64,000 nucleotides of DNA from Adineta vaga (lineage: Eukaryota > Animalia > Rotifera), in the NCBI GenBank assembly GCA_021613535.1, contig CP075492.1, positions 2,108,001 to 2,172,000 of the forward strand, in the 5' to 3' direction. Shown piece by piece: positions 8,803 to 57,825 of the stretch. The translations under genes were made by a program, and so were the position numbers. Every line of letters starts with the position of its first letter. The first letter of the stretch is position 1. The notes beneath the pieces were generated by a model. That model was not told the origin of the DNA, did no database searches, and saw only the letters and a list, made by a program, of their open reading frames with translations.

Positions 8803-9895
8803 AGCATTTCAACAAAGCTACTCAACAAGATTCACCAGGAAAAAAACATTTGTTCATATTTCTTGAATTTCACAACCAGAATAACAAATGAACATTTCTT
8901 TCCGATTAAATATTAGAGAAAGTTTTTTTCTTCCTATTTTTTACGCTTGGATAACTCTCGCGTTTTCCTATATCTTCTCTTGAAGAACAAAACCTGTTTT
9001 TTCTGTATTGCTGTTGTTGTGAAGAGTTTCAAAAGATTGAAATGCAAAATAAGGAAGGTTTCTATATATGATGAGAGTTCTAACTGTTGACAGTCTTAAC
9101 TCTACAGTATATACGTGGTTGAAAAGTGACTGATGTAATCGTAGGAAATCTGTCCATTATAATATTGTTTAGCTCATTTGATGTATATTCATAGTTAAAC
9201 TGTTTTGAAAAATCCATCTCTTCTCCAAGGGATCTAAAAACAAGTGATCACATCTCGGCCATACTATTGTTTCCAAAACAGTTTAATTATGAATATATTC
9301 GGTGACTGAATTCATTCATTCAACAATACATAATAACCTATGTGAACGACTTTTTCTTTTAACATACGCTTCAGTACTTTATATTAGAGTTAAAGAAGAG
9401 AAGTCGTTGAGGAACTTCTTCTCTTTAATAAACTCATGAACAAAAGATCACCAGAAACATATGTTCTTGAGGAAGGAAAGAATACAAGCATGGAAGAATA
9501 GATGAGATGAATAAGCAATAATGAAGCAAACAATATTATAATGGACAGATTTCTTACGATTACATCAGTCACTTTTCAACCACGTATATACTGTAGAGTT
9601 AAGACTGTCAACAGTTAGAACTCTCATCATATATAGAAACCTTCCTTATTTTGCATTTCAATCTTTTGAAACTCTTCACAACAACAGCAATACAGAAAAA
9701 ACAGGTTTTGTTCTTCAAGAGAAGATATAGGAAAACGCGAGAGTTATCCAAGCGTAAAAAATAGGAAGAAAAAAACTTTCTCTAATATTTAATCGGAAAG
9801 AAATGTTCATTTGTTATTCTGGTTGTGAAATTCAAGAAATATGAACAAATGTTTTTTTCCTGGTGAATCTTGTTGAGTAGCTATGTTGAAATGCT
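8803..9895. repeat. Near-perfect ~368-bp inverted duplication (8803-9170 / 9528-9895)
   Basis: Arms are reverse complements with very few mismatches; spacer ~357 bp. Confidence 0.9.
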
Positions 9896-11108: not shown

Positions 11109-14100
11109 ATGGAAACAATAAATCATATTCTACAATCTCTTCGACATTTTTTCATTCAAGTCAATGTATTTGAAACGGACGAAACGCATCAAGCAGTTCT
11201 ATATATTCAGCGATGGTCCACTCGAGTTTATATTTGTCTCCTTGTGTTCTTCATGTGCATTCTCATTGGTTACAATATAATAGTTCCGGAAACACAACAG
11301 ATAGAAGTGCAAAATCCGTCTCTCGATACCTATTTGAAATTGCAAAATGTTTATACGGATATTCAATGTATCTCCAAGGAAATATCGCTTCCTTATGGTT
11401 TATTTGTTGAATTGATTCCTTTCTACCATCCTATTTGTTCTAGCGATTTTATCTCACAGAATTGGATTGATATACTTTTTGACAATATGACGACCACACG
11501 CTATGCGGGTGATTTCCGGGCGACGAGTTTTAATCAGTTTCAAGTGTTGCGAGAATTATGTAAACAGTCAAAAACCATATTAAATGATGATTTTCAAACA
11601 TTCTATCAACAAGGTTTTATTTCCTCCCGTTTATTTACAGAGAATCTCATGAAAGCTACAGTTATGACCATGATTGATCAATTTCAATCGCAAAGCAGAG
11701 TGAATTTCGAACAAATCCTTTCCTTTACGCGCTATTTTGTGCTCACTAATGGTTTGATGCCGGGAATCCAAACGGCCCATAGTTTTGGCACTCTTTTCGG
11801 TTTACCAGCAGTTACATCCAATAATTATGTTCCCTTAGTACCTTTTACGTATGGTTGTGATTGCACTTTTTTCTTCAATTGTAGTTTGATAGCGGCATTC
11901 TATGATACAGAAGCACGCCATATAGAAGGAACTATTGGTTGGTGGTGGTTTGAATCAGATACACTAGGTTTCGTGGACAACTGGTATGTCGGATGTTGGG
12001 CCTTAGAATCTCTTTTACTTTCATCAGTCGATGCTAGCTTGTTATACAATCAAACTACACTTAATACTATCGGTACCTACTTTGAATCGTCGTCATCATC
12101 ATTTAAGCCACATGCTCTGAATAAAACGTCTAGAAAGAACAATCTCACTTTCAGCGATCTAGTTCAAAATTTATTTCTTGAAAATATGTCAATAAACATT
12201 AATTATTCCCTTTATTATGAACAATCTCAAGTACAATCTTGTTCTTATACAGTAAAACAACGTTCGAGTGTTCTCTACATAATCACTTCTATTCTTTCAC
12301 TCTATGGTGGTCTAACAGTTATTCTTCGATTACTTGTTCCCAAAATAGTTACTATCGCAATCAAATGGAGCACACGTGCAACGACCATTGCTACTGTCAT
12401 AGGTAAGCATAGATCTGTATATGAGGCGTTGCATAATGACCATCTTCTATATGGTTAGTATTTTTACAGTAGCTAGACTAAGCATGTTAGGAAGAAACTC
12501 GAAATTTTAGCTCAAACGAATAAGTTCCTCCACAAATACAGGCGTTACAAATGTCATGAGTAGGGAACATTTCGAGCACTTTTTTGTGTAATAATTCTCA
12601 CTCAATTTCACTGGTCGCTATGGATGTCTTAGATCAAAGCTAGTAGGAAAAAACCTATAAATTTAAAATTTCAGTTCAGTCGGATTTACTAGAGAGAACT
12701 TATGGAACACTGACTTTTCGTTCGTCTATCGTAGACCTCACAGCATTTTTTTACGTAGCCCTGACTAGGAAACATCACTGGGTTGATCAAGAAGGAGTAT
12801 ATAATGAAAAGATTCAAATTAGACATAAAACTTATGAATACGTACGCATTGATAGGTGCTTTCTATTCATACGCTAATTATAAGAAAATATGTACAGAAA
12901 GATATTGCGGTCCTCCTCAGGAATACGAAAAAAAAAATCAAATTTCGAATTCTGGGCTGATCCTTTGCGTGAGATGAAGGTCTTATCAACGGTAGCTTAT
13001 TGCGGAAACTTTAGCTCTTTTAGTCGCACTAAATCCGCAATTCAGAACAATAAGTTTTCAGTTTACTAAAAATGATTGAAAAAGTTTGAAAAATGAATAC
13101 TTCATAATGGGTCCCCAGCTGCATTTCCTAGTATAGTGAAACAAAACTTTTGAAAACAAAAATCGATACATCTCAATGTGCTCTTTCAAACGAGACTACT
13201 CTCGAAATGATCTAGGATGCCTATTCCAGAGATCCTCTTTTATCGTTCGTGAGATATTCATTCAAAATTGAGTGAGAATTATTATACAAAAAAGTGCTCA
13301 AAATATTCATTACTCATGAAGCTTGTAACGCTTATATCTGTGGAAGGACTTATTCGTTTAGGCCATACCAATCATATCGTAGATGGTCATTGAGCAACAT
13401 CAGGCGTAGCGTGCCTTGGTGTCAAGAGGATATCAAGTGAATCGCTCAAAGACTTCTTTTCTGCGTATTTTTTAGATGTACCTGAAACAACCATGAAAAC
13501 AACATTGGGTGAACGAAGCCGAGCGTTGCGAGGTCTTATTTGGGATTCACTCATTGAGTTAAATATGTTTAAATCACCATTTCAACAGCAGCCATCAGAT
13601 ATCAGAAAGCAACGGTTGACAACACGACTCTATATATGTGTACTGATTCTTGCATTTTTCATTCTGACATTGTTTACAAGCATGAATATTCAAGAAAAAG
13701 TGATTAATGTCAATGAACCGTCTTTCAGTGATGTCCTCTACTTACAGTCACAGAATGAATTCAATTCTTCTCTACATTGTCCGTGCACGCAGCTTACCAC
13801 TTCTTACAGACAAATTGTACGGCTTGAACCATTCTATCATCAAGTATGCATATGGGATACTTCAGCATGGGACTGGGGAGTTTATTTGAATAGTGGCTAT
13901 TTAATTGTGGGGCTAGGAACTGATGCACTCACCTTTAGTTCAAATGTCTTTAAAATCTTGTCAACAGTGTGCATGCTATCAAACAAGACTATTTTTAATT
14001 CATTAAAAACATTTGAACAAACACAACTGGTTACTGGTCAATTACTCACAGCCAAAACTTTTGAATACCAAATGACTTCGGTTATAGAACAGTTCAAATT

Positions 14101-19649: not shown

Positions 19650-21833
19650 GAATCTGGATTCAATGACTCTTTATCAGCTTGGATTACTCCTGAGTCATTA
19701 TCATCACCGGCCGGTGATTCCGGTTTACTTGTACTTCAAGACATGCCACCAATTCGAGCGGGAGAGGATGCATTACATTTGGAAGTAACTAATGATAATC
19801 AACAACACAATTATTTAACTACGGAAGATATAGGCGAAATAAAAGGTGCTTCATTAACTGCTGGTGTTGTAATTCAACCTGTTTCTTCTTGAAGTTCAGA
19901 ATCGGGTATGTTTTCTATTGTTTGAAAGAAGATCTAATAAATAGTTTACAGGTGTTCATACATTTGATCTTGGTCAGAATATTGCTGGATGGTGTCGTTT
20001 ACGATTTCTTGGTCCACCAGGTTATGGTACATATATACGTCACGGAGAATCATTAGTTCAAGGAACTGTTGGAAATAAGTAATCAATGATTTATTTTTCG
20101 ATCTTGTATGATCATAATTTAATTTTAGTCAACCTACTAAAAATATTTACACAGAAAATCTTCGTGAAGCTGTTGCATCGGACACTTACATTCTTCATGG
20201 TGATCCAGTTTTTGAAATTTATGAGCCAACGTATGACATTTCTTTAGTATTTGTTTTCATTTCAGTTGGTATTTTCTTTAGTTTTACTTATCATGGTTTT
20301 CGTTATATATCTGTATATGGTTCACCCAATCCATTGGCTCTCGATGATGTTGAATGTCCTTTCGTACATAGTGAAACAACATTAAAAGGTAATTTCACTT
20401 CGAGCAATCCCATTATTAATCAAATTCAACATAATGTTCAATGGGGTCAATTAAGTAACTCAATGTCTTTACCTACTGATTGGTAAGTTTGATTGATAGA
20501 ATATTTTTCTTCTGAATTCTATTGTTTTAGTCCACAACGTAATGAACGTCGAGGATGGATGGGAGATGCAGCACTAACAGTCAATGAAGCCTTATATAAT
20601 TTTGATTTAGTCAAATTTTATCTAAATTTTCTTAATTTAATCTGTGATGTTCAATTACCCGATGGACAAGTTCCAGATTTCGTACCTGGATCCAGTTATA
20701 ATCCCGATCCAAATTGGGGAACTGCATTACCAACAATAGCTTGGCAAGTTTATCGACATACGAATGACTCATCACTTCTCGAACCTTATTATGACAATGT
20801 TCGTGCTTACGTAGAATATATTCGTAAGGGATATAATCAAACTGGTCTTGTTAATTTATTCTGCAAATATGGTGATTGGGTTCCACCACCACCATTTGGT
20901 CAAACTAATAGAGCTCTTATATCATCATTTGCTTTTCTTCATGATGTTAATATTCTATTAAATATGTCTCAAGTGTTGAGAAAAACGAGTGATACTGCCA
21001 TATATTCAGCATTTTATGAACAACTTACCCAAGAATTTCATCGTGTCTTTTTTAATAATGCAACAAACACTTATGCTGATGGAATGCAAGCAGCTCAAGT
21101 CTTAGCTTTGGCATTACCTGGTGTTGTACCACCTAATGTACGTGGTGTTGTTGTCGATAATCTCGTCACAGATATTAGCAAACAAGGAAATCATGTAACA
21201 ACAGGCATTGTCTCTAATGCTCAAATCTATCCTGTTTTATCTGATAATGGACATCATGATTTAGCACTTGAAGTAGTTACATCAATAACATATCCATCTT
21301 ACGGTTATATGTTTAACAATCCTTATGAAAATGCCACCACTATTTGGGAATTATGGAATGCTCCACTTACAGGACCAGGCATGAATTCACGTAATCATCA
21401 TATGTATTCTACTGTTGGTACATGGTTTTATACTCATTTAGCTGGTATTGATTTTACATCAGATGCAATCATTATTCGACCACGAATGGCTTCTGAAGCT
21501 AAAAAACATTTGATGAAAAAATTAGATTGTCAATTAAGTACATTATATGGTCTTGTACATGTTTCATATACTCGTGATGAACGTGATACAATTGCTAATT
21601 CCATTTTACTTCGTGTTACAATACCACCAAATGCACAAGCTCGTATTATGTTTGAACCATTATTTCCTGGTGCACAATGCAAAACATTGATTGAAGGTAA
21701 CAAAATAATATGGTCATCAGGTGTTACTATTGCAAATAATCAAGAATTTCAAATTGAAAAAGATTTAACAACAAATTTATTGAGTGTACATGTTGGTTCA
21801 GGTCAATATGAATTTCATGCAGTGTGGAATTAA
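19650..21833 (+). pseudogene. Alpha-L-rhamnosidase (GH78, bacterial type) with spliceosomal introns; 5'-truncated, nonsense TGA at 19890-19892
   Basis: Motifs FDLGQNIAGW, TFTYHGFRY, PTDCPQRNERRGWMGD, YGDW, ATTIWELWN, MNSRNHHM; several ~50-nt GT-AG introns; 5' end abuts the piggyBac. Confidence 0.9.
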
Positions 21834-28322: not shown

Positions 28323-29952
28323 GCAACACCGCTAGATCCTAGTGACAAGTAACATGCTAAAATGAAGAAAATCGTATTTTTAGACTATTCCTTAGGAAAA
28401 TATGGCTTCTGTTACAATACCATTGGATATTCAATCTCTTACAACATCAGAAAATATGGAACTAGAAATCTTTTGTCTTGTTTGGCTTGATGCTAACTCA
28501 GTTGGTAAAGATGCGCGTAATACTGAACAACAACTGCGTTCAATTATTAATTACTTCAAAAAATTTCAAGATATTCCGTCCTGTGAAAGTTTCATTCGTA
28601 CACGAACATCAAATGAACGAGTTGTTATGATTGTTAGTGGTCGATTAGGACGTGAAATTGTTCCACATATTCATCATCTTCGCCAAGTTATATCTATTTA
28701 TGTTTATTGTATGGATAAAGAAAGCAATAAAAAATGGTCTCGAGATTATCGAAAAGTAAATACTAATTAGAAAAAGAATCTAAATTAAAATAGAATTTTT
28801 CTATCGATAGACAAAAGCAGTTGTTGTTCAACTGGATGAACTTGTTTCCCGAATTCAATCTGATCATAAAATTCAAAAGAAAATTGAAGAACCTTTATCA
28901 ATTAATATATTTACTACAGGTACATCAACAACTGGTTTAAATAGTGAATTTCTTTTTTCACAAGTTCTTCTTGATTGTCTTATTCGATTAAAATTTACTG
29001 AAACTGATCAAAGAGAATTAATTGAACTTTGTAAACAACAATATAAAGATAATCGTGCTGAATTAAGTAATATTCATGAATTTGAAGAAAAATAATTATC
29101 TAAAAATGCTTTATGGTGGTATACAAGAGAATCATTTTTTTATAAAACACTTAATGCTGCACTTCGTGGATCATCTATTCATATAATATTTCTTTATCGT
29201 AAATATATAAATGATATTCAATATCAATTAAAACAAAATCAAGTTAAAAATTCAATTCAAGTTTATCGTTGTCAGATGATGTCAAATGAAGAATTAGATA
29301 CTTTAAAAAACTATTCTCATCAATTTATTTCAATTAATTCGTTTTTTTCAACCAGTTTAAATAAAGAACAAGCTCTTGAATTTCTTCAAGTTCCTGATGA
29401 TACAGAAAAGTTAGTTGGTGTTTTATTTCAAATTAATGCTGATCCTAAAATGGCTGTAACAAAACCATTTGCTAATCTTAAAAAATTTAGTGAATTTCAA
29501 GATGAAGATGAAATTTTATTTATGATTGGATCGATTTTTCGATTGGACAACATCACGATTAACGAAAATGACCGAGTTTGGATTATACAAATGACATTAT
29601 GTAACGATGAAGAACATGATTTACGAGATGTTCTCACACATACGAAAGAACAATATGTGAGTAAAGAAACGAATTTTCACACATTAGGAAAACTATTATT
29701 GGATATGTTGAAATTTGAACTGGCTCAAAAATATTTAATACGTATGTTAGAACAACTTCCACTCGATAATTCATCAAGAATTGATATATATTTGGATCTT
29801 GCCAAAGTCGAAAAACATTTACGCAACGAAGACAAAAGTTTAGAATGGCGTCAAAAAGCAGCCGAGTTAGATAAACAAATTGGACCGAGTTCTCAATCCA
29901 ATATAGATAAATCAAATAAATTCATAGGTATGCTTATTGAAATAAATGACTA

Positions 29953-30019
29953 CAGTAAAACCTCTCTATAGTGGATACTCTCGGGACCATTCAGAAGTGT
30001 CCACTGTAGAGAGGTGTCC
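29953..30019. mobile_element. Truncated Tc1/pogo-like MITE end
   Basis: TA-CAGTAAAACCTCTCTATAGTGGA..TCCACTGTAGAGAGG; cut by a telomere scar. Confidence 0.55.
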
Positions 30020-30595: not shown

Positions 30596-31657
30596 AGGGA
30601 TGACAATCAGTGAAATAGGGTAGGAGCATGCTATTGTAGGTTGTAGTTAGATTTACTAATTTCCTGCTAGTAGCTTTACTCCAAAGATCTAACCGATTTG
30701 ATTTCTATGTGGGTTGATAGAGCCGATCAAGAGCTATCAGAATACTATGGTGTTGTACTTTGCACGGTAAATGATGGAGAAAATGCTCGTGGGTTATCTG
30801 TGACACGGCCCGATATTCACATGTTTCGTATATTGCGTGCTAAGTTGAGTCTGTGAAAAAATGACTAAGATAAGAAGAAACCTAGCATCAGTTGCCACCA
30901 AAATGATCAGCTCGATGAGCTCTTCAAGCTGTAGAAGTATGAGCCATTTCTGAGGGGGTCGATCTATATAGTGGGAGGTTTCCCATGGATTCACTCCATG
31001 TATGCATTCACTGTAACAAATTCTAATCTTCCATGTAATGACCGTACAGGATTCATTTTTTAACCGAAATATGAGTCCGAATTAGACCAGATAAATTTAG
31101 TCTGACCAAACTTCGATCAACTCGAATTTTTTAGTTCGAGATCAGTATTAGTGCATAGATTATAGAGAAATGATAGATTTATTGATTTTCTGTTTTGTAT
31201 TTGATTTTGGGCTTATTTTTCCTGTACTTCATTTTTGTTACCTTCCGTCACTAAATATAAAAATAACACAGGTTAACCTTTCCGGCCGTTTTTATATTCT
31301 ATTTTGTGTTTAGAAAAACCACGGGATGCTCCATTATATAACAAATCACTGTATTCTGATTACAAATGTCATTGCGGAGGACGTGCTTGTAGTGAATGTC
31401 AAAACTGCCGTGATTGGTATTGGCGTTCTGATGGCCAGGAAAAGTGCTACGTAAAGCGTCATGATGCGACCTGTACTTATGGTGGTCGTCTTGATCGTTT
31501 TTTTGGTCGTAATAGTGGTCGTGATTATTATTCTCGTAGTTTTGATGGCTATCACTATCAATATTATCATGGTGATGGTGGAAGTCTATGTCAATGCGAG
31601 ACCAACTGTGATTAGTATAATAAGCATTTTGACTTGATGTTGTGTTTGAATGAAGAA

Positions 31658-31711
31658 CTACCACAATCTAGATTTCGACTTTTATTGAAAGAATCAATCT
31701 TCAGGCGGTAG
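31658..31711 (-). ncRNA. Type I hammerhead ribozyme (Penelope/Athena pLTR type)
   Basis: Minus strand: CTACCGC-CTGAAGA-tt-stem II-GAAA-TCTAGA-TT-GTGGTAG, followed by ...TTCAAACACA. Confidence 0.8.
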
Positions 31712-31796
31712 AAAGATCTGCATGAATGAATCACAAATCTTCCAAAACGAATTCGAAAGATCTATACTTCAAAAGTAGCAGACAGTCATCATTAAA

Positions 31797-31840
31797 GGGT
31801 GGGTGTGGATAAAGGTGGGTGAGTGTGGGTGTGGGTGAGT
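31797..31840 (+). repeat. G-strand telomere tract at the 3' end of a minus-strand HHR module
   Basis: GGGTGGGTGTGG...GAGTGTGGGTGTGGGTGAGT. Confidence 0.85.
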
Positions 31841-31847
31841 AAAGCAT

Positions 31848-31892
31848 ACCGTGATCGCGATTTCGTCTTTGCTAGTAGACTCTTCAGGCGGC
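31848..31892 (-). ncRNA. Type I hammerhead ribozyme
   Basis: Minus strand: GCCGC-CTGAAGA-GTCT(actagcaa)AGAC-GAAA-TCGCGA-TC-ACGGT, then ATGCTTTACTCACCC plus telomere repeats. Confidence 0.85.
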
Positions 31893-32121
31893 TGTGTTTT
31901 TTTAGTTGGTTATATTCCAACATATCGTATTTTAGTTGTGGTGTCCTTATATAGTGAATCGGATGGCTGAGAAGCAAGTCGGTGATTGGGTTGTAACACT
32001 GTAGTATGGCGACATCTTTATGAATTAAAGAACTGAGTGTGGAATGCGAATTGAAATGGACGGTTGCACATTGTTGACGAAGACATGATGATAAAGATGG
32101 ATGGAATTTGATGGATATGGC

Positions 32122-32310
32122 GGGTGTGTTTGAAAATAGATATAGAAAGAATCAAATATTAGAAATCTTTTCATTTTGTCCACAAGATTAAAGATTCGAA
32201 TTTATTTAAAGTGTCCACATAGATATGCTTGAATAAGTACGAGAAACTTATTCGAAAAGTTCATTAAATCAGAGCAGGACTCGAACCCACATCTTCCGAT
32301 AACCGGTCTG
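32122..32310 (-). mobile_element. tRNA-headed telomere-joined element, copy B (5'-truncated in the anticodon arm)
   Basis: Reverse complement aligns along its length to 41675-41860; B-box GGTTCGAGTCC; ends CTATTTTCAAACACACCC. Confidence 0.85.
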
Positions 32311-32567
32311 AGGATATTGGCTGAATACCGTTCTGGTTTTCACGATCACATCATATCAGAATGGCTGATGCTTCGCTGAGACTCTGCTCTTCGCAATATT
32401 GGTTCCCCTGGCGTTGTTGTTCTAAAGTCATCGTTGTACTATTCATTTCTTTTGATTCGTAGTTATTAATAGAGATCAGGTTGTCGGAAATGCAGTTATC
32501 TGTTGTTTGGGCCCCTCTGAATCTTACTATCGTTTTCTCTTTTGCAATTTCGATTTTAAAGTATTCT

Positions 32568-32714
32568 ACCGGTTTCGACCTTGTCCAAGGGTCTCATCAG
32601 ATGGATTATGTCTGCATATCCTCACATCATGACTTCAAATGCTGAATGGCTATTTATAACAAAAGCATTGGAGAGAAATTATGTGATATGCAGACATGAA
32701 CTACCATGACCGGT
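32568..32714 (-). ncRNA. Type III hammerhead ribozyme with extended stem I (minus strand)
   Basis: ACCGG-TC-ATGG..long hairpin..CCAT-CTGATGA-GACC(cttggacaa)GGTC-GAAA-CCGGT. Confidence 0.85.
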
Positions 32715-32852
32715 GTGTGTCTGTCTTCTGACTCTTCGCAGGGCTCAACTACTCAAATACTAATGATTTTGTTGTCATACTGTAGTATGAAAAATAATCT
32801 TTATTATTTGAGTAGTTGAGCACTGAGAACAGTCAGAAGACAGACACACACG

Positions 32853-32997
32853 CCGGTCATGGTAGTTCATGTCTGCATGTTACATCATTTCTCTCGAAGT
32901 CTTTTCTTATGAATAGACATTCAGCATTTGAGGTCGTGATGTGAAGATATGCAGACATAATCCATCTGATGAGACCCTTGAACAAGGTCGAAACCGG
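32853..32997 (+). ncRNA. Type III hammerhead ribozyme with extended stem I (plus strand); predicted cleavage after C32858
   Basis: CCGG-TC-ATGG-tagttc-ATGTCTGCAT...ATGCAGACAT-aat-CCAT-CTGATGA-GACC(cttgaacaa)GGTC-GAAA-CCGG. Confidence 0.85.
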
Positions 32998-33589
32998 TAG
33001 AAACTATGCAAGGAACACGATTATAGAGACTTAAGTTAGTAATGTATATCTTTGCCGAAAACGAAGACCGACAGCGTTGTGCGAATTACCGTCTCACTCA
33101 GTCGTCATAGTTGTTGTTTCTTGTATCTATACAGGATCATTCTAAAACTAACAATATTCATATATAGTATGATCAATCGGTTTCATGTGAATATTACATC
33201 CTGTTGAACACAGAGAGCTACTTGAAGAGTTCCCTGAGCGAATTCGAAATCTAACTAATACGGATGATTATAAACTTCATATTCCCAATATAAAAATATC
33301 GGACATGATTCAGACTCTACCGATCTATATCGGTGTCATCAAAGGTCTTTCAGCAAAAAAAGTCAGGTAAAACAGATAAAATGCAGCAGAAGCATACAGT
33401 CTACATTGACCAAAATGCTTCTGCTGCTTTTTTTTATCGGAGTCAGAAATATGTATCCTTGCCTAAAATTCTCTGTAACGTTTACAGTAGACTATCTGTC
33501 ATCGAAACACTATGACGAGAAACATAAACATACATTTCACTTCCATACGATTACCGAAAATCAACTCAGCAATTAAAGCCAAACATAAA

Positions 33590-33814
33590 CCCACCGAATA
33601 TCGGGAGATGTAGGTTCGATTCCTGCTTTGATTTTATGATCTTTCTTTACAAGTTATTCGTACTTGTTTAGACATATCCTTGTGGTTGCATTTTCTTTAA
33701 TTTCGAAGATATTTCCGTGGACAAAAGAAATGATTATTTTGCTTTATAACTCGTTCATTTTCTTATTTTCAAACTCACCCTCACCCTCGCCCTCACACCC
33801 ACCCTCACCCTCAA
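33590..33814 (+). mobile_element. tRNA-headed telomere-joined element, copy C (diverged, 5'-truncated), followed by (CACCCT)n
   Basis: ATCGGGAGATGTAGGTTCGATTCCTGCTTTGATT head; same body hairpin; ends TTATTTTCAAACTCACCC-TCACCC...CCCTCAAT. Confidence 0.8.
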
Positions 33815-34524
33815 TCTTAATTTCTTTTTAGCTGCATATAATAATAATCTCCATTCGTTATTAAAATTTAATAAGATATCTGATGATCTTCTTAGCAGAA
33901 GTGAAATCTAGATTATGGCAGCTAGTGTCACCCTCACCCCTCACTCCCTTGGTTAATCCGACGCCACGTCCCTCAATGCTCACACGTATACCCGTATTCA
34001 ATGCAGCATCCTATTCGAGAACCAGCACAATCAACTCTATTTGTAGCACAGATTCATTGACGAATATCCGCAGAAAATACTCGTAAAAGTGCTCCAAAAA
34101 CCCAGCTTTTGGGTCCTAACCCCCCTTATAGGACCTACGACCCCCCCTCTCAAATGGTCTCATTCGATGCAGAATTTAATTCTGCATCCAGCACAACCCT
34201 TTCCAGAGCCAGCACAGATTCATAGCCGAATATCCACAGGAAATACTCGAATCCGCTGCTAACTTTACTCACGTATAGAAGACCCATAGAAGAAAGAGAG
34301 AACGAGAAAGACGAAAGATCGTCCATCTATTATAATAGATGGCGATCCTGACAACTATACTATAGCGAAATTTGAAGACGAATCGTTAATGGCATGATAT
34401 TTTTTTGAACGATTAGTTGAAAACAACAATAAAAAGTACATGTTTCGTGTCATATCATCGATACAATCCGCAAGTACAATAATGCTATGATCGTGTCAAG
34501 TGTTCTGTCTCCATATACTATCCA

Positions 34525-38810: not shown

Positions 38811-38857
38811 GTTTTTAAGATCTAGTAGGAATATTATCGAATGATGTACGAGTAAAG

Positions 38858-40671
38858 ATGGCGCTTCCTGAATTACGACAAATTGTCAACGAATTTAAAT
38901 CCCAAAAAATATCAAAACAATTAAAAAGACGTGCTCAACGAGAATATAAAATTATTCAAAGTCTACGTCGATTATTACGTGAACGACCTGATATTATGAT
39001 TTGTCGAACAGAAAAGACCAAAACATTATATATTGGTAATCGAATGACAATGACTCGTAAAGCATACGAATATATGACTAAAACATCAGCTTATGAAGAA
39101 ATTACTGATAATGGTTCACCTTTAACTTTTATATTACAAGGTCTACATACATTACTTGATTCTATTGTGCGCACACATGGTCTAACTGATAAACAACGTA
39201 AAAAATTACTTCCAAATTTAAATCGTGTAGAATTAGCACATTATCATGGTTTACCAAAGACACATAAGATAGGAAACAAAACGCATTATTTTATTTATTT
39301 TTTAATAATTCTACTTTTAAAATTTAATATAGGATGGAATACCATTATGACCTATTATTGCATCTATTCATTCACCGAAAACATTGCTGTCGAAATTTCT
39401 AAATGATCTTCTTGCACCTATCTATCTACAAGTGGCACGTGACACAACATTTATTAATGATATCGATTTAATACGAAAATTAGAAACTCATGTTAACCAA
39501 GGTTTTTTTAATTCAACCACAAAATTTGTTATAGCTGACGTGAAAAATCTTTATACGATGGTACCAAGAGATGGTGCAATACTAGTATTGGCTAAATTTT
39601 TAGAAAAATATGCAAAAAATAGAAAAATCGGTACATTGACAATTGATCATATACTACGTATGGCTCGTTTCATATTGGATACAAATTATTTTGTTTATAA
39701 TGATAAATACTACAAACAAATACGTGGTGGAGCCATGGGTTCCGCTTTCACACAAGTTCTAGCCAATATTTATATGTTTGAATGGGAACAAGACTTAATT
39801 GCATATATACACCAACATAATGGAATCTATGGCAGGTATGTAATGTATTCACCAACGAAATAGATTTATTCTATTATTTTTCTTCCTTAGATATATTGAT
39901 GATATCTTCATCGTTACGAATCAACCAATTGCCGAGGTACAAGTGGAATTACAAAAAGCTCAAATCAAAGATATTAATATTGAGATAACACCAGAAATTA
40001 GTTTGTCAGTCAATTTTCTCGATGTATCAATTACTAATGAAAATGGTCAATTAAGAACATCGATCTATCATAAACCAACTGCCGAACCATACATATTACC
40101 TTATACATCAGATCATCCACGTCATATTCATCGTAATATACCATATACAGCTTTATTACGTGCAGCTCGTCTTTGTTCACATGTCGAAGACTTTAATACA
40201 GAACGTATTCGTATTGACATGTCTCTCTTATTAAATAATTATCCACCAAGATTTATCACTTACCAATTTAAAAACTTTTTTCACAACTACAATGCACTTC
40301 CTGTCTTAGAACAATTAGATACAGATATCTATCAACGATTACATCATGAAGTACTACATAAACCTTCACGACGTGAAAAACAATTGAATACCTCGATAAA
40401 AGATCCAGTTCAATATCCTGCTGTCTTACAAAAAAAACCATGGAATAAATCAATTATGTATGTAAAATATAAATATGATAGTGCTCTAACAACACACTTT
40501 CCAAAACAATTCAATCAATGGTGGAATAAACATTTTAAATATGGCCCCAATGATCTGAATAATGCACGCATTCTTCTGATAGGAAACACCAATCGAACAC
40601 TTGAACAATACTTAATCCATAAAAAACCATCAAAAGAAATACTAACCAAAATACAATCAACAGAAAACTAA
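38858..40671 (+). pseudogene. Athena reverse transcriptase with introns at ~39269-39332 and 39836-39890; TGA at 39348-39350; first donor mutated
   Basis: YHGLPKTHK, ADVKNLYT, GGAMGS, R|YIDD split by an intron, NFLDV, YHKPT, SDHP; no GIY-YIG domain. Confidence 0.9.
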
Positions 40672-41201
40672 TATCATTTGTGCATTTAAATTTCAACAAA
40701 AAACACTTTTCCTCTCTCATTCAATACTAATGTACAATTCCTCCTATTTTCCTTCACTAACAAAAAGACTATTTCTTTTTTTCTTCAAATAAAACCCATT
40801 CATTATTCCTCTGTTACTCACCTATCATTCTCGCTTCCATCTCTTCATAAACACATCTATGTAATCCTTTTTAGATTATACACATTTACATATGCAAACC
40901 TCCAAACCAAGACTAATTATCTATTACATATTGATGACAAGTAATGTATCATTCATATATCATAAACTTCTTTCTTCTATCTTCAGACTCAGCAGACTAG
41001 CCGAACAAGTGACCAAATCGCGATCGTACGATTGCTTTGAATTATTTTGTTATCTGTAAACTCACCATTTACGTAAGAAATCATTATATTCTATACATTT
41101 CATGTAATTACTATTATATATATATGTTAGATGTTTCCTTCTTTAAGTTAACTTCTATAATTTACATGACTAATTATTATATAGTTTCATATAGTTCTTA
41201 A

Positions 41202-41245
41202 CATACCCGTTGAGTTCCTTAAGCAAGAACGAAACATGTCGTATG
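41202..41245 (+). ncRNA. Type I hammerhead ribozyme with a degenerate core (probably inactive)
   Basis: CATAC-CCGTTGA-GTTC(cttaagcaa)GAAC-GAAA-CATG-TC-GTATG; a more decayed copy lies at ~40985-41070. Confidence 0.7.
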
Positions 41246-41645
41246 ACTGCTTTGAACTATATTCTTATTTGTAAACTCACCCTCACCCTCACCCTCACCC
41301 TCAAACTCACCTTAGTTGTTACGACCTTGTTACGAATAAAGATCTTAGTTTCGTAATAGAGTTATGGAAAATGTAGTAACTCTAATGTCCTGATATGTAC
41401 ATTGATATCTTTTGATTATCTTTTGATTATCTTTTGATTTTCTTAAGATATCATTTATGTATCGTGGATTAAGAGTTCTGTTTTGCTACATTCGAAGTTT
41501 CTTTTGTTGCTTAACTAGGTTCTTATAGTCCTCGTGCAACAATAAGAATCCTTATTAGTTAATCATTTGATCATTAATGTCCTGAACTATCGATTTTTGA
41601 TTTATTCAGAGTTTTGATATGTTGTTATTAACTAACAGAAGAAAA

Positions 41646-41716
41646 AGTCAGATAGTTTAATTGGTAAAATAGCCGACCAGTTATCGGAAGATGTGGGTTC
41701 GAGTCCTGCTCTGATT
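41646..41716 (+). tRNA. tRNA-like cloverleaf (Thr-like AGT, non-canonical loop) forming the head of a repeated element; probably not a decoding tRNA
   Basis: Acceptor AGTCAGA/TCTGATT; D-arm GTTT-AATTGGTA-AAAT (A-box); CCGA-CCAGTTA-TCGG; T-arm GTGGG-TTCGAGT-CCTGC (B-box). Confidence 0.7.
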
Positions 41717-41895
41717 TAATGATCTTTTTGAATAAGTTTCTCGTACTTATTCAAGCATATCTCTGTGGATACTTTGAATAAATTCGACTCTTTAGTCTTG
41801 CGGACAAATGAGAAGATTTCTAATGAATGATTCTTTCATCATCTATTTTCAAACTCACCCCTCACCCTCACCCTCACCCTCACCCCTCACCCTCA
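41646..41895 (+). mobile_element. tRNA-headed telomere-joined element, copy A (complete head), followed by (CACCCT)n
   Basis: tRNA head, ~145-nt body with the hairpin TTGAATAAGT-ttctcgt-ACTTATTCAA, then CTATTTTCAAACTCACCC and telomere repeats to 41895. Confidence 0.85.
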
Positions 41896-43722: not shown

Positions 43723-44320
43723 TTATGGGATGGAATTGTGATAGCCGTAGTAGAAAAGAATTTGTTGAATTGTTTGGAAGGGAAGTATGAGATGTTTTGG
43801 TTTTTCTGTTGCTTTCTTCGATGGATATTGTTTATAACCATGTAATTTTGATAGGAATCGGCCGAATTCTAGACAGTTAAAGTCTCCTCTAATATAGTCA
43901 TTCCATGGCAAAATATTTTGGGTAACTTTGTAATTACAACATGTACCAGTAATTGTGTCGAGAAATCGAGTTCTTTTATTGATTTTGTTCTTAAAAATAA
44001 TTTGTATATATAATTCTTTTAGAGGGTATAATGGATTTATTTCTTGGCCGACACAAAGATATTGTATTTCTTCATCATAAAGTTCTTGTCGAATATAATT
44101 CATAATAGTGTGTTTTGAAGTAGTAGTCCATGATATAATAGCTGATGATTCTGAATTATGTTGAATTGGCTCTCGAAGAGAAGATGGTGGTGGCTCTTGT
44201 AGATTAAATTGACATAGGTTAGCAATAGTTGGTCGATCAAGATCAGCATATTTACTGTACCAAGATTGACAATTAGGCTTTTTATCTGTTTGATCGACTG
44301 TAAGTTGAAAAGATGTTTAC
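43723..44320 (-). pseudogene. Degenerate Rep-like (HUH rolling-circle initiator) ORF
   Basis: Frame open upstream of Met44103: IISWT (motif I-like)...YLCVGQE..ELYIQIIF (motif II position, His lost)...WNDYI (motif III Tyr). Rep-like ORFs are known terminon cargo. Confidence 0.45.
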
Positions 44321-44857
44321 ATTGTAAATTCTGATGATTTTTTGATGAATAGGGTCAAGTAGTTAGATCTTAGATGATAAGATGTAGGTTAATTGTGTTT
44401 TCGAAGCTTAATTTTTGATGGAAGTTGTTGTAATATACATATATATCTAGAGAGGGAACGATGGCAAAAGATCAATTCATGTCTACAAGATTTAAGGAAT
44501 GTTATATTGATTAATACATTTCTAGTCTAATGAAAATAGTCTATAGGACGTATGTTTTCGTAAAATAAAGATGGTATGCATGATCTATAGAAGTGGGTAT
44601 TATTATGAGGTAAATTGTTGGTTTTCGGAATATAAAGAATCGTAAGTACCATTATTTACGCCATAAGTACTCTGTAAGTGTTTGGAATCATCCATGCTGT
44701 GTTGTTTGTTTGTTAGATCTTGAGTAATTTTATCGATTCGAACATTAATTGAATCTATATGTGAACGATTGCATTTTTTTCGAGTGTTTACCGTACCACT
44801 ATACTCTATAATAAATTATACATCAAAGTGAAAGGGTGAAGAAAATGACTGAGAAAT

Positions 44858-45265
44858 CTAGTCACCTGTATCTAATGTTAAGTTTCGTCGCGTTTTTTTA
44901 TGAACCAAAGAACGATAGAAATATGAAAGTATAATTGCAAAGAATATTACTAGCAGAATACAGGCAATAATAGTTTGGTGATGTTGAGTTTTTAGAGTGT
45001 GTAGGAATCGGTCAATGCTCGTTGATGATTCTGATATATCCGTTATTGAAGATATTTCTGAATTAGTTGGTGTGCCCATTATCCATGATGTCGTTGTAGA
45101 AATTTGTGTATCTGATTTTGGTTCAACCACTTGAACATTGTAGTGTTCTAAGTTCTGTAGAAAATCGGCGGTTGAAGAAAAGTTAGTCTTTAACATGTTC
45201 GCTCGTGGTCTATATTCAAATTGAAGTTGACCATTCATCATAACAAGATTCTTCAATGAACTCAT
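44858..45265 (-). CDS. Small single-TM protein, probable terminon ORF
   Basis: 135-aa ORF with a Ser/Thr-rich stalk, TM IIACILLVIFFAIILSYFY and a basic tail. Confidence 0.55.
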   Translation of the reverse strand: MSSLKNLVMMNGQLQFEYRPRANMLKTNFSSTADFLQNLEHYNVQVVEPKSDTQISTTTSWIMGTPTNSEISSITDISESSTSIDRFLHTLKTQHHQTIIACILLVIFFAIILSYFYRSLVHKKTRRNLTLDTGD

Positions 45266-45768
45266 ATTTGTAATTGTTTAATATCAATGAAGTGAAAAGG
45301 AAAAGGAAAAATCTAAAATAGAAAGAAATATCCTTAAATCGGAAGAAAAAAAATCTGAACAAAGACTAAGCGATAGAAAAGAAGAGTGTCTACTATATGT
45401 AAAAGTTCTATTTTCAACAAAAAAAACAAAGATATTTGTGATAGGATTGTATTTTACGATTATTTATTATGTCTACATTTCATACTACAATGTTAGTAAG
45501 ATAAATAATAACGTTTTGTTATTCTAAGAATATAATGTATATAGTTTGATGTATGTTGTTATTATAGATTCAATCTATATTATTTCATAAACATCGCTGA
45601 TTCTCGTCTTTTTGTGACGTTTTGTCAGATGGTTCTGGTATTGTAATCTAATTATGAATAAAAAGATTCATTTCTCTTAGAAGGCTAGATTCAATATGTT
45701 TGAACTTATGAATACGTACCTTCACGTCTGTTTCGACTTTTTTCTCTGATTCTTTTGTTTTTACAGGA

Positions 45769-46006
45769 GCTTCGCTGAGACTCTGCTCTTCGCAATATTG
45801 GTTCCCCTGGCGTTGTTGTTCTAAAGTCATCGTTGTACTATTCATTTCTTTTGATTCGTAGTTATTAATAGAGATCAGGTTGTCGGAAATGCAGTTATCT
45901 GTTGTTTGGGCCCCTCTGAATCTTACTATCGTTTTCTCTTTTGCAATTTCGATTTTAAAGTATTCTACCGGTTTCGACCTTGTCCAAGGGTCTCATCAGA
46001 TGGATT
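45769..46006. repeat. 238-bp direct duplicate of 32370-32607
   Basis: Apparently identical sequence containing the start of ORF MNSTTMTLEQQ and the HHR core. Confidence 0.9.
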
Positions 46007-47405
46007 GTGTCTGTCTCCTGACTTTTCGCAGTGCTCAACTACTTAAATAGTAACGATCGTTTTTGATACTGATAAGATATTCAAAAATAACGTTCTCATG
46101 TTTAACACAAAATAAGAGAAGAATATTCAAAGGATCAATAGACAAGTACATGGAAAAGCAAAATAGTAACTTCTCATCGAAACCGGTCGGCTACGTATAG
46201 CCATGGAAAGTCTCGTCTTCACCTTTGATATAAGATAATGAAAAATAGTCATCGACTTTATTCTTAGCTTCCTTTTTATTAAATGAAATAAAACTGATCG
46301 ATAACAGAAAAAGTTACTTTTTCGACGAATTATCATTTGTCTGTGGTGTTAAATCGACATAATACTATTTGTTTGTCGATGTCGATGTCGATGTAGTAAC
46401 ACCGAGCCTTTTCGATTCTTCTTTTGCTTCATCTTCATCTCGTTGTCTACGTTCTGCTGGATTACCAACATCGATCTAATTAATACAGAAATAGTTCAAT
46501 ACTTCATATTTCTCATAAAAATTCTTTTCTACACATCTTACCCATTGTCATGGAAGTTCTTCTTCCATGTACACATTGAGATACCAATTAATGTAATCCT
46601 CCAATATCCGAGGATTATTTAATCTCGGATTTGAAGGTGTTAATCCATAGTATCGCCGATACATTGGTGAATAAAAGAATTGACTATTAGCCGACACCAA
46701 TGGAGTTCCCTACAGGATAGAAGTAGTATGAAACAAGTTCGATTCCAAAATTCATGTTTATTCAAAGTTGTCCTTACCACTGTTCCTTCTCGTTTTTCAC
46801 CATCAGGTCTGCTGCTTGATGGCCTGTGACCTGAAACAAGGCTTGGTTCAGGTGATGTTGATATCTTTTGTGGTACTTCTTCATGGCATTTTAAACCAGA
46901 AGAAGACCGAGTGACGGCTTCATCAGATAGTCTTCTGATTATAGGCCGTCTTCTTGCTGCTCTTGATGGCATAAGACCATCGAGAAGCCGTTTGGCCAAT
47001 GGTTTGTGGTCGACTGACTTCTCGCGGCTAGGCATATCTGACGAGTAAATATTTATACTTAAATCTAAAGTATAAAGCAAAAATATAATATATCTCTATG
47101 CTCTACATCGATACAAGAGTACGTCATGCAACTTTATTTCAGTCTGACAACTAACAAATGATCATGCAAAAACGAACACATACAATAATAAAAAGAAAAG
47201 AAAACACTACTTCAGATCGACTGTTCAACGTCTGTTGCTTCCATTCTGGTCAATAATGATGCCGAAGGTTTCTTTCGAACAAACAGATCATTCAAAGATG
47301 GATTCGTCAATGCTGTTATCATGACACGTACATCTTTGACAGCTGATCCTTTGTAACCATAATATTTCGTCCATAATTTCCGAAATTGTCGATTGAAATC
47401 CTTCG

Positions 47406-54444: not shown

Positions 54445-56599
54445 TAGAACAAATTACTAATGCTTTTCTCATTTAATTCTATTTATTCATGCAATGGAAA
54501 TAGTATTTCTATGTTTCTCTTACTAATAGATCATTTCTTATGGCGTTTTTTATTTCGAAAATGTAATCTAGTATATATTTCTTTATTCTATTCTAGATCA
54601 ACAATACAAACTACTTCAATATACTATATATTATGCAGCAAAATATCATCTAAATTCGATTAAAACATAATTAAATTCAATTTTTCAATGAATTTAATCA
54701 TTTTTTATGGAATTTGTCTTAAAAATAGATTATGTTACAGTGTCATTTTCATTTTAACTTAGTTTTAATTCATTCGAAATCCATTTTTACGATTCTGAAC
54801 CATCTTTCAAAGAATATTCCAATCAAAAAGTAATGTTCAAAATTATTGAGTAAATAGTTTCTATTATGGCAAATTGTTATTCTCATTGTTTTATTCTTTA
54901 ATAGTAGTTCGAACACAATATAAGCAAATCTAAAAAGTCGACAATCAATTTGATTCATTATAATTGAGGCCCACAATCAATTATCAAGAGTAATACATTT
55001 AGTATTGTAAAGAAAATGAAATATTTTCTCCTTTCTTTTAGATGAGAATCATATTGTCTATATCCAAAAACAATATGTATCTTATTCTTTCATTATAATA
55101 ATCGAAATACAATCTCAATTATTATTATCAAGTCTGCCAAAAAGGTATGATTAACATCTATTCATTTATATGATTCAACGATATTGAAAATAATAAGAAT
55201 TTATATTGAAGAAAGAAAGATATTTATTGCTGGATTAAAATAAATCAAACAAGAAAAAAACAAAACAAAATTAGAATGTCTTCATTCTTCAATGAAGACA
55301 AACCACATGGACGTGCTGCAAAAAGAACTATCTAATACAAAAATGATAAGCGGCACTACCACGCGCACAAGCATAACGAGCAAAGAACAGAAAAAAAACA
55401 AAAAAATTAACTACCACCATTCGTGATAGTGATGTCCAACGATTTATGTTCGTTTTTTCTCGGCGAAACATCGAGTGTTATACTACCATGATCATTGTTA
55501 ATGACCACGGTTGTTGCCTGATGTCCATTCTGTTGTTGATTATTTCCAGTAGTTGTTACTGGTGCTCATGGTGGTCGCGTTGGTGGTGGACCAAGTGCTC
55601 CTCGTCTACTAATGTGTAGACGAGTAAAGCTTGCATGACCATCATCGTCTTTACGATGTTCGTACAAGATCACCAACTTGTTATGCTCAATACGAACCTT
55701 CTTATATTGAGCATTGATCGGTGCTTCAGCACGAGCATCATCACTACTGCTTCCGTTTGAAGCAGCACCATTAAATCCACATCGCTGAGAACGTCGACTT
55801 ACTTTTGGCATTTTCTTAATATGAATGAAGAAAAAAAAAAAGATTCTCTGCTTCTTCGACTTTATATTCCTTCTCTCTCTTTTATTTCTTTCCTTTGGTA
55901 TTTTTTCCAGAACAAATGTTCTGTTTCTTCTTTCTATACATTGATCAAAAATCTTCTTCGCTTTGTACGTGACCAATATGTATAGAATGCATGAAAAAAA
56001 ACTATGAAGAAAATATTCACATGTTTTTGAATTCTCGATATACCAATATCAAAACTCATCATACATCTATGGATTATGAGAATATATCTTTTTCTAGTGT
56101 ATCCAGACACTCACAAGCCAACGGAATCTACAATAAAAAACAGTATATAACGGTTCATTCTATATTTTGAATATAACAAACATTCATAGGATGCTAGTCT
56201 TTGATCAAGAATCAATTGAGATCAACGATAAAGAACTGCAAGTTACAAAAAAAAAAATAAACTAGTCTCGCAAAGAACATAAAAGTACCATAAAATAAAT
56301 CCTTTACAATCATCCATCATCAAACTACATCAAATACTCCAAGCAAACTGAATAACGCCATCCAAACCAACAGCCAGAGTTCAAATGACAGAATCCATCC
56401 AAATTCTCAGCAACAAACCGACTACACCATACAACAGCATCAATCAATCCAAAACTAAGGTCTGATTTAATCAAACCAACATACTTCGTCTTAATTCACA
56501 GCAGTGATAACAGTGTATTTCGTTCGAAAATGATTGAATTGAGTTGTTTTTGACTTTCTAAGTTGAAAATAATCTAGTTTTGATCGTTTTTGACTGAGA

Positions 56600-56644
56600 A
56601 GCCATCTGATGAGATCCGTAGCGGGATCGAAACGCGTCATGGCT
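56600..56644 (+). ncRNA. Canonical type I hammerhead ribozyme
   Basis: AGCCAT-CTGATGA-GATCC(gtagcg)GGATC-GAAA-CGCG-TC-ATGGCT; GUC cleavage after 56638. Confidence 0.95.
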
Positions 56645-57267
56645 GCTAGACCACACCCACACCCACCCCACACCCACCCTTCGTGTCGACTAAATTTTTT
56701 TCCATTTAACATTTTCGTTAAGATCTAGTAGTTGTGCATAATTAGATGTGGAATAGCTTTCAAAACTTTTCACTATGGTTCGATAAAGCATGTCAAGCTA
56801 TGCAAGAATTTAAATATCAGCATTTTTCCTGATCATGTTTCTTCTGTAAAAGTTAGAGATAAGTAAAACGAGTCGTAAAAGTTTTATATATTGTGTACTA
56901 AAGAAAAGAATGCTTAATTTTTCATACGTTTAATCAATCGACAGGTGACCATGTTTGTGCACCTTAAAAAAAACCTTTTCATTTATAATATGTAATAAAG
57001 CATCTTAAAACATAAAATAATAGACAGAACAATCGATGTATCAAATTTATTGAGAATTATGTATGCTCTGCCATGCATGATGTGTTAGATTTTTGTTAGT
57101 CTGTCTTCTTTCTTTCGGCATTTGTATTCAGAAAGAACTTATTGATTAATCAGGATTTGTTAATTTCTATTATTCATCTGGTTGAGAGTAAAACTGCATT
57201 ATAATAAGATATCGAATCTCATTTTTATTCAAAAGACAATAAAATAAAAATACAATTATTGATCGAA

Positions 57268-57825
57268 TATACGCTCAATTTGAAATCTAATACTATACGT
57301 CGATGTAGTTTTTCCTGCTCTATAAAATAACATAAGATCATAGCTATCATTATTATCTCTCTTAGAATTGCTATGGACATAAAAGTATGAATAATTCGTA
57401 CTAGAATGAAACTTTAGTTTAGATTGTCATGATGCTGACTGTGACTATAAAATGATCCATACCGCTCTGATCCTCTATCGATAATCTATCGTTACCTATT
57501 ACTATATCCATACTTATGTAGAACGAATAGGCAAGAGATAAATAAAGATATCATATTAGTGGAATGGCTTTTTGGCAGTGCATTTGCGCAATCAAACCGC
57601 CGAATGTTGTACTGTCCGCATAAAAAATCAAATATTTTCTGCTTTTCGAAGCAGTTTCAAATGAAAACTTAGAAGAATATTATGACAAGCCCTGTCAAAT
57701 ATTCATACTTTTATGTCCATAGCAATTCTAAGAGAGATAATAATGATAGCTATGATCTTATGTTATTTTATAGAGCAGGAAAAACTACATCGACGTATAG
57801 TATTAGATTTCAAATTGAGCGTATA
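57268..57825. repeat. 126-bp inverted duplication (57268-57393 / 57700-57825)
   Basis: Arms appear to be exact reverse complements; spacer ~306 bp. Confidence 0.9.

What the first reader, a model, noticed from the sequence alone, without database searches (positions are those of the whole stretch)
32564..33002. ~440-nt rod-like hairpin with a complete type III hammerhead on each strand
Seen: 32564-32780 and 32785-33002 are imperfect reverse complements closed by TCATAC-tgta-GTATGA. Each arm encodes an intact type III HHR (CCGG-UC, CUGAUGA, GACC/GGUC, GAAA-CCGG) whose stem I is stretched into a ~105-nt hairpin. The cores and pairing stems are identical between arms while loops and the distal stem diverge, which suggests selection. 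Known: Penelope/Athena HHRs are typically minimal type I motifs, whereas both-polarity HHRs in rod-like RNA characterise viroid-like replicons. Inference: this is either a bidirectional terminon head whose divergent transcripts self-trim their 5' ends (an ORF starts ~120 nt downstream on the minus side) or an integrated viroid-like/retrozyme RNA.
Basis: partly seen in the sequence, partly recalled or inferred. Interest (0 to 1): 0.85.

Follow-up and report, generated by a model that had tools for sequence, protein, structure and literature searches.

The report
Rearranged hammerhead ribozyme of rotifer retroelement
A rotifer genome carries two head-to-head copies of a repeated retroelement end, each holding a hammerhead RNA motif rearranged so that it is predicted to cut itself as a single molecule, and the mirror arrangement is likely an ordinary by-product of insertion rather than a viroid.

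Summary
In detail: 32564-33002 is a 217-bp-arm inverted repeat (196 of 219 columns identical) with a complete type III-topology hammerhead on each strand. It is unlikely to be viroid-like. The window is a bdelloid-rotifer Athena/terminon region. The core is the Penelope-like-element (PLE) hammerhead: 79 of 82 database matches are ordinary type I ends followed by their own cleavage site. Here that site is lost. The core instead pairs with an upstream site strand across a 99-nt hairpin: one active centre of the known dimeric PLE hammerhead fixed in one strand, with a covarying loop II pseudoknot. The unit is multi-copy, lies ahead of a mini-ORF, tRNA-like segment and telomere-repeat tail, and has a homolog in a metagenome contig. 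Other copies shown are not palindromic; head-to-head inversion is a published PLE feature, and the rod fold abolishes the hammerhead fold. Differences avoid the core and proximal stem, which points to selection. Cleavage and expression are untested, and the axis junction was not confirmed in public runs. New variant of a known kind.

The parts
32785..33002 (+). Right arm: leader plus type III-topology hammerhead unit; ends 4 nt after the core, followed by single-copy DNA
32564..32780 (-). Left arm: leader plus type III-topology hammerhead unit; continues into the rest of the repeated element
32775..32790 (.). Palindrome axis (between 32782 and 32783); other copies continue here with non-mirror sequence
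32853..32862 (+). Helix III 5' strand, predicted cleavage site after C32858, helix I strand
32865..32869 (+). Helix I internal-loop strand GUUCA, complementary to loop II (predicted pseudoknot)
32863..32961 (+). 99-nt hairpin extension of helix I; proximal stem invariant between arms, distal part variable
32962..32998 (+). PLE-type catalytic core, helix II with loop II (32979-32983 pairs with 32865-32869), helix III 3' strand; own downstream site lost
32568..32713 (-). Mirror hammerhead unit; predicted cut after position 32708; loop II change keeps the pseudoknot as a G-U pair
32351..32446 (-). 31-codon mini-ORF (MNSTT...), no homolog found; coding status unproven
32122..32339 (-). tRNA-like segment with altered 5' half, 3' tail and C-rich telomere-type end of the left element
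33560..33813 (+). Older tRNA-like segment, tail and (TCACCC)n on the right side; the linker 33003-33590 is unrelated to the left linker
31640..31900 (-). Two flanking type I hammerhead-like ends pointing away from the axis; the one at 31887 is followed by telomere repeats
33870..33945 (+). Degenerate type I hammerhead end with TCACCC repeats pointing away from the axis
45769..46071 (-). Second copy: 99.6% identical to 32370-32614, leader joined directly to the core (site strand and hairpin missing)
38819..40671 (+). Endonuclease-less PLE (Athena-type) reverse transcriptase gene in pieces, context for the element class
56598..56680 (+). Ordinary type I terminon end (hammerhead plus ACACCC repeats) for comparison

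Best explanation
Each arm is the head of a multi-copy, likely non-autonomous Penelope-like (Athena/terminon-associated) retroelement of a bdelloid rotifer, carrying the element's hammerhead in rearranged order so that it is predicted to self-cleave as one molecule, and the palindrome is likely the head-to-head 5' inversion typical of these elements. Shown: the core is the PLE core. Its own downstream site is gone. An upstream copy of the site strand supplies helix III, helix I and a strand complementary to loop II, and a 99-nt hairpin joins the two. This is one active centre of the known dimeric PLE hammerhead fixed in a single strand. Inferred: it arose from a tandem pair of pLTR repeats that lost the upstream core and the downstream site. 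A transcript starting near the axis, or reading in from upstream in non-palindromic copies, would be cut about 70 nt into the head. That would free a roughly 590-nt element RNA with a 5'-OH end from upstream RNA, and Athena reverse transcriptase would mobilise the element through its C-rich 3' end. A transcript that crosses about 80 nt or more of the opposite arm would form double-stranded RNA and would not cleave.
For: Core identity: 79 of 82 matches to the core pattern in 76 metagenome loci are followed by their own site strand, and 65 of 82 have a C-rich telomere word within 45 nt. In public runs of the same organism the core 32962-32998 is followed by CATGG in other copies. Intermediates: 8 of 43 distinct cores have an upstream CCGGUC site 117-143 nt away, most with an altered upstream core. 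In 7 of 7 such tandem relatives folded, the upstream-site fold is favoured over the own-site monomer. The window units reach the active fold within 1.1-1.2 kcal/mol of the ensemble, against 3.6-15.1 for 14 relatives. Pseudoknot: 15 of 15 cells paired in three units, with one two-sided change and one wobble; complementarity across 35 distinct loop/strand pairs exceeds 2000 of 2000 partner shuffles. Constraint: 15 of 15 segregating sites among three haplotypes lie in the distal 70 nt and none in the other 55 nt. Multi-copy: a contig spanning site strand to core has depth 98 against 9-12 for single-copy contigs. The same architecture occurs in L059. Palindrome: displayed copies continue past 32767 without a mirror arm. 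L028 holds a head-to-head pLTR pair with a hammerhead on each strand. Head-to-head inversion is described for PLEs (PMC3846280, PMC8557442). Context: bdelloid RT, telomere repeats and further type I ends.
Against: No cleavage or transcript data. The longer copies shown keep the leader upstream of the cut, which a cleaved template would lose, so the role of cleavage in the life cycle is unsettled. The arms are about 10% apart, each looks single-copy, and their differences avoid the core. That needs either two different source templates or selection at this locus, and a fresh inversion from one template explains neither. The pair count on three sequences is not significant against its shuffle (146 of 500), and the rows are related. 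L059 is degenerate in helices I and II (13.9 kcal/mol). Among the 6 site-only relatives folded there is no preference for the upstream site (2 favour it, 4 do not). Many distal-stem changes break pairs. No target-site duplication was found. Helix II is closest to solo pLTRs without telomere repeats (L020, L026, L028, L072), so Athena versus Penelope origin is not settled.
Confidence: 0.7

Rival explanations
1. The palindrome is a selected bidirectional head: transcription starts near the axis in both directions and each nascent RNA trims its own 5' end.
For: Differences between two apparently single-copy arms avoid both hammerheads. Up to 70 nt of the opposite arm does not disturb the fold. 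Both sides lead to tRNA-like tails and telomere-type ends pointing outward. Bidirectional pLTR promoters were proposed in PMC3846280.
Against: Displayed copies elsewhere lack the mirror arm. The right arm is followed by single-copy DNA unrelated to the left linker. Constraint inherited from two source lineages explains the pattern without selection at this locus.
Confidence: 0.15
2. The junction at the axis is not a simple contiguous palindrome: a spacer-bearing allele exists, or the assembly joined two family copies.
For: Arm-specific contigs end at 32782 and begin at 32783 with no overlap in the runs shown, which in such assemblies implies a fork or gap at the axis (inference).
Against: The window has no N. 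Both arms exist at single-copy depth with matching flanks. A short bridging contig could be among the pieces not displayed.
Confidence: 0.1
3. An integrated viroid-like or retrozyme circular RNA with hammerheads in both polarities.
For: Rod fold with opposed cleavage sites. The unit is bracketed by a 6-nt direct repeat ACCGGT, as a monomer copied from a circle would be. Metazoan retrozymes are reported to derive from pLTRs (10.64898/2026.07.22.740005).
Against: One cleavable site per strand, so no monomer can be released. No tandem-monomer or empty-site joint was listed. The arms are 89% identical DNA inverted repeats, and the rod makes the active fold 139 kcal/mol unfavourable. The core is homologous to host PLE ends. 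No match in viral contigs.
Confidence: 0.05

Closest known systems
Minimal type I hammerheads of PLE pseudo-LTRs and Athena/Terminon 3' ends (PMC4209133, PMC6431247)
   Same: Same core sequence, loop II and palindromic helix III word; found among telomere-repeat-tagged ends near an Athena-type RT; upstream-site/downstream-core pairing equals one centre of the dimeric fold.
   Different: Own downstream site lost, no upstream core, strands joined by a long hairpin, 5-bp helix III in one strand, located at the head of the unit ahead of an ORF start, no telomere repeat right after it.
Head-to-head inverted pLTRs of Penelope-like elements (PMC3846280, PMC8557442)
   Same: About 200-bp arms, head-to-head, palindromic junction, inverted copy ending at the end of the repeat; L028 shows the same with type I motifs.
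   Different: Arms here differ by about 10%, no target-site duplication was found, and the element ends in telomere-type repeats.
Atypical type III hammerheads of toad and termite HDV-like RNAs and dipteran genomes (PMC7936874)
   Same: Short first helix I stem, internal loop pairing with loop II, extra capping hairpin.
   Different: Different pairing words, much longer cap, no delta antigen or circle, and direct sequence homology to PLE type I motifs.
Metazoan non-LTR retrozymes (PMC7229834; 10.64898/2026.07.22.740005)
   Same: Non-autonomous, pLTR-derived, hammerhead-bearing, self-paired unit.
   Different: Retrozymes are tandem repeats with a complete type I motif per unit and make circles; here there is one site per strand and no tandem array.

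Membership tests
Hammerhead ribozyme, type III topology | Conserved core CUGANGA, GAAA and NUH site | tested here: met
   Both strands
Hammerhead ribozyme, type III topology | Helices I and II closed, helix III open, in one strand | tested here: met
   4, 4 and 5 bp; active fold 1.1-1.2 kcal/mol above the ensemble. Rfam models did not score it; the long insert is the likely reason.
Hammerhead ribozyme, type III topology | Loop I-loop II tertiary contact | tested here: inconclusive
   5-bp complementarity kept in three units with one two-sided change (not significant alone); wider covariation on related rows
Hammerhead ribozyme, type III topology | Self-cleavage | not testable with these tools
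   Needs an in vitro assay
PLE (Athena/Terminon) pLTR hammerhead | Core and palindromic helix III homologous to PLE motifs | tested here: met
PLE (Athena/Terminon) pLTR hammerhead | Type I order with the site directly after the core | tested here: not met
   Core is followed by sequence that cannot form helix I; hence a variant, not a standard member
PLE (Athena/Terminon) pLTR hammerhead | C-rich telomere repeats immediately 3' of the hammerhead | tested here: not met
   Repeats lie about 440 nt downstream, after the tRNA-like tail
PLE (Athena/Terminon) pLTR hammerhead | Own reverse transcriptase ORF in the unit | tested here: not met
   Only a 31-codon ORF; an Athena-type RT lies 6 kb away; non-autonomous by inference
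PLE head-to-head 5' inversion | Inverted partial copy of the terminal repeat adjacent to the 5' end | tested here: met
PLE head-to-head 5' inversion | Target-site duplication | tested here: not met
   None found around 32122-33002; PMC3846280 also reports inverted pLTR copies without one
Non-LTR retrozyme | At least two tandem units, each with a complete hammerhead | tested here: not met
   No tandem in the window; no such joint listed
Viroid-like circular RNA | Circular monomer released by cleavage at repeated sites in both polarities | tested here: not met
   One site per strand; rod ends open into unrelated flanks
Viroid-like circular RNA | Circular RNA detected | not testable with these tools
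   Only contigs available

The most novel reading that the evidence does not exclude
PLE hammerheads work in vivo as upstream-site/downstream-core ribozymes stabilised by a loop II pseudoknot, and this family has fixed that arrangement into a monomeric type III ribozyme that cuts the element's 5' end: a natural type I to type III permutation caught in an animal genome. It would explain why isolated minimal PLE motifs cleaved poorly in vitro, and it offers a route from PLE repeats to the long-helix type III hammerheads of animal genomes and HDV-like RNAs.
Probability: 0.4. Interest if true: 0.7.

Novelty: new variant of a known kind. Interest (0 to 1): 0.45.

Why it matters
The function of hammerheads in Penelope-like elements is described as unknown in the reviews read (PMC7761336, PMC8557442), and a single minimal motif showed no detectable cleavage in vitro (PMC4209133). 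This unit is a natural, single-strand version that is predicted to fold well and to carry a tertiary contact, so it gives a direct assay for the question. Relatives show possible intermediates, and two units begin at the cleavage site. The palindrome itself matters little.

Tried and rejected
No whole genome is held for this window, so copies were studied through public-run contigs and metagenome loci. Rfam gave no hammerhead hit at the gathering score in the window or by E-value in 31500-34200, only generic hairpin matches to miRNA models below their thresholds. The core pattern found 0 loci in viral contigs. No RNA holder was listed among sequencing runs. Of two guessed-RNA runs laid, one had a single contig matching only the core and the other had none; this is no evidence on expression. 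The mini-ORF had no homolog among 20 candidates. The protein atlas did not answer. The left and right linkers are not homologous. A first pair count used a misregistered pseudoknot and was replaced. The 'all copies' test was dropped, because variants in the deeply covered core fall under the 8% listing threshold; one search replaces it. The class label 'unit starts at cleavage site' was too wide: of its 16 rows, 13 are upstream site words without a core, 1 is a degenerate tandem (L055), and only 2 (L016, L052) start at the site. L060 (56% GC) was left out as probably unrelated. The bacterial promoter scan is not informative for a eukaryote. The Terminon paper (Arkhipova 2017) and Gladyshev and Arkhipova 2007 are not held and were not seen; they or their supplements may already show this arrangement.

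Full report
1. Observation. The inverted repeat is real. The arms share 196 of 219 alignment columns, and the 439-nt strand folds into a rod with z -36. Each strand carries, in order, CCGGUC, AUGG, a 99-nt insert, CCAU, CUGAUGA, a GACC/GGUC helix II and GAAA-CCGGU. This is a complete hammerhead with helix III open. Predicted cuts fall after C32858 (+) and at 32708 (-). Rfam models do not score it.

2. Setting. The window has TGTGGG/TGAGGG-type repeats and a PLE-type RT gene at 38819-40671. Of its 92 homologs, 75 carry a name, and 74 of those are from bdelloid rotifers; the strong hits lack a GIY-YIG domain. Several ordinary type I hammerhead ends, most followed by C-rich repeats, lie at 31704, 31887, 33880, 43483, 52178 and 56606. 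This matches the Athena/Terminon 3' end as described in PMC6431247 (passages). No whole genome was available.

3. What the core is. A scan of metagenome contigs with the core pattern returned 76 loci and 82 matches. In 79 of 82 the core is followed directly by its own cleavage-site strand, and in 65 of 82 a C-rich telomere word follows within 45 nt. The loci come from few samples and give 50 distinct contexts. In public runs of the same organism, other copies of the core 32962-32998 are also followed by CATGG. The core is therefore the standard PLE type I hammerhead with a palindromic helix III. PMC4209133 (parts 1-2 of 4 read) describes these motifs as working through a dimeric fold and finds little activity in vitro. 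In a dimer each core cuts the other copy's site (established knowledge, recalled). The window unit keeps exactly one such centre: an upstream site strand and a downstream core, with the outer halves gone.

4. Intermediates. Of 43 distinct cores with enough upstream sequence, 8 have an upstream CCGGUC site 117-143 nt away, mostly with an altered upstream core. Another 13 have an upstream site word with no core, 1 is a degenerate tandem, 2 begin at the cleavage site and 19 have none of these. In 7 of 7 full-helix tandem relatives the upstream-site fold costs less than the own-site monomer; in the 6 site-only cases there is no preference. The window units reach the active fold within 1.1-1.2 kcal/mol, against 3.6-15.1 for the 14 relatives folded. 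L059 has the same architecture as the window unit: a shared leader word, a 105-nt insert and no downstream site, though with weakened helices. Its insert is only weakly similar once the first 10 nt are removed.

5. Signs of constraint. Between the arms, 1 of 50 core positions, 0 of 26 proximal-stem positions and 12 of 70 distal positions differ. Adding the commonest haplotype seen in run X4, 15 of 15 segregating sites lie in the distal 70 nt and none in the other 55 nt, P 1e-4 (overlaps the first test). Loop II is complementary to the helix I internal loop: UGAAC/GUUCA in the right arm, a G-U version in the left arm (the only core difference) and a two-sided change in L059 (146 of 500 shuffles reach this, so not significant alone). 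Across 35 distinct loop/strand pairs the mean complementarity was 3.54 against 3.11 for shuffled partners, with 0 of 2000 shuffles as high (rows are related). A similar pseudoknot is described for long-helix type III hammerheads of HDV-like RNAs and insect genomes (PMC7936874, passages). Distal changes are mixed: several keep pairs as wobbles, one pair is compensatory, and many break pairs.

6. The element. In run X4 one contig spanning site strand to core has depth 98 against 9-12 for single-copy contigs, suggesting roughly ten or more copies; the tool warns that depth is not a copy number. Depth stays high from 32122 to the axis and falls to background after 33015. On the minus strand the left copy reads: leader, hammerhead unit, 31-codon ORF, tRNA-like segment, tail, C-rich end. 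Deletion variants join these parts in other copies. A second copy at 45769-46071 lacks the site strand and hairpin and lies upstream of a transmembrane and Rep-like ORF.

7. The palindrome. Displayed copies continue past 32767 with non-mirror sequence, and the axis-proximal contigs are at single-copy depth, so the mirror looks local. Inverted head-to-head pLTRs with palindromic junctions and arms of about 200 bp are described for bdelloid Penelope elements (PMC3846280, passages) and for PLEs generally (PMC8557442, passages). L028 shows such a pair with a hammerhead on each strand, 1 of 76 loci. In the rod the active fold is 139 kcal/mol uphill. It survives up to 70 nt of the opposite arm and is lost at 80 nt. 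The rod and the ribozymes are thus mutually exclusive. Two points stay open. The arms differ by about 10% with differences sparing both cores, which needs two source templates or selection at this locus. Arm-specific contigs stop exactly at the axis with no bridging piece displayed.

8. Mechanism. Shown: anatomy, homology to PLE hammerheads, repetition, constraint and local inversion. Predicted: monomeric cleavage and the pseudoknot. Inferred: origin from a tandem pLTR pair; cleavage separating the element RNA from upstream RNA; mobilisation by Athena RT; inversion formed during reverse transcription. Against a simple 5'-processing role, the longer copies shown retain the leader upstream of the cut.

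9. Novelty. Searches for hammerhead with bdelloid, rotifer with type III, terminon, Athena with SINE, Penelope-like with type III, Athena with hammerhead, and type III with pseudoknot and retrotransposon listed no description of a type III-order hammerhead in a PLE. The passages read call PLE and Terminon motifs minimal type I with unknown role (PMC7761336, PMC7229834, PMC6155905). A preprint (10.64898/2026.07.22.740005, parts 1-2 of 5) derives retrozymes from pLTRs. The primary Terminon paper was not available and may cover this arrangement. One earlier scan note filed type I rotifer motifs as known, which agrees with the class assignment but is not independent support. Verdict: real feature, new variant of a known kind, interest 0.45.

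Noticed in passing
window 41646-41895 (+), 32122-32339 (-), 33560-33813 (+): A tRNA-derived, SINE-like family whose 3' tail resembles Athena ends and finishes in TCACCC repeats; the tRNA-like part of the left copy is the deepest-covered bin. It may be a SINE mobilised by Athena RT. One paper search on this returned nothing.
   Followed up: partly
L016 and L052, about 120 nt upstream of the core: Repeat units whose 5' junction falls within 1-2 nt of the hammerhead cleavage site, a possible genomic footprint of in vivo cleavage.
   Followed up: partly
L001, L004, L012, L013, L021, L027, L037, L038, L054, L061, L062, L063, L065: Athena ends with a second cleavage-site word and no core 134-150 nt upstream of the core; folding shows no preference for it. 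They look like one family.
   Followed up: partly
window 43723-45277 (-): Transmembrane ORF and a decayed Rep-like ORF (homologs hit Gemini_AL1 weakly, below cut-off) ending near a type I hammerhead at 43483; a terminon-type unit downstream of the second head copy.
   Followed up: partly
window 32370-32614 and 45769-46013: 99.6% identical 245-nt duplication sharing alleles that differ from most other copies; recent conversion, duplication or assembly effect.
   Followed up: no
window 40995-41300 (+): Two degenerate hammerhead ends with altered cores behind the RT gene, followed by TCACCC repeats.
   Followed up: no
window 8803-9895, 12514-13359, 57263-57830, 61587-61886: Other long inverted repeats, probably small DNA transposons or foldbacks.
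   Followed up: no
window 20118-21833 (+), 29096-29971 (+): Bacterial-type alpha-L-rhamnosidase and an ADP-ribosyltransferase-domain ORF, of the kind common in bdelloid subtelomeric regions (recalled).
   Followed up: no
L028 408-665: Head-to-head pLTR pair with a type I hammerhead on each strand, the only one of 76 loci with both strands.
   Followed up: yes
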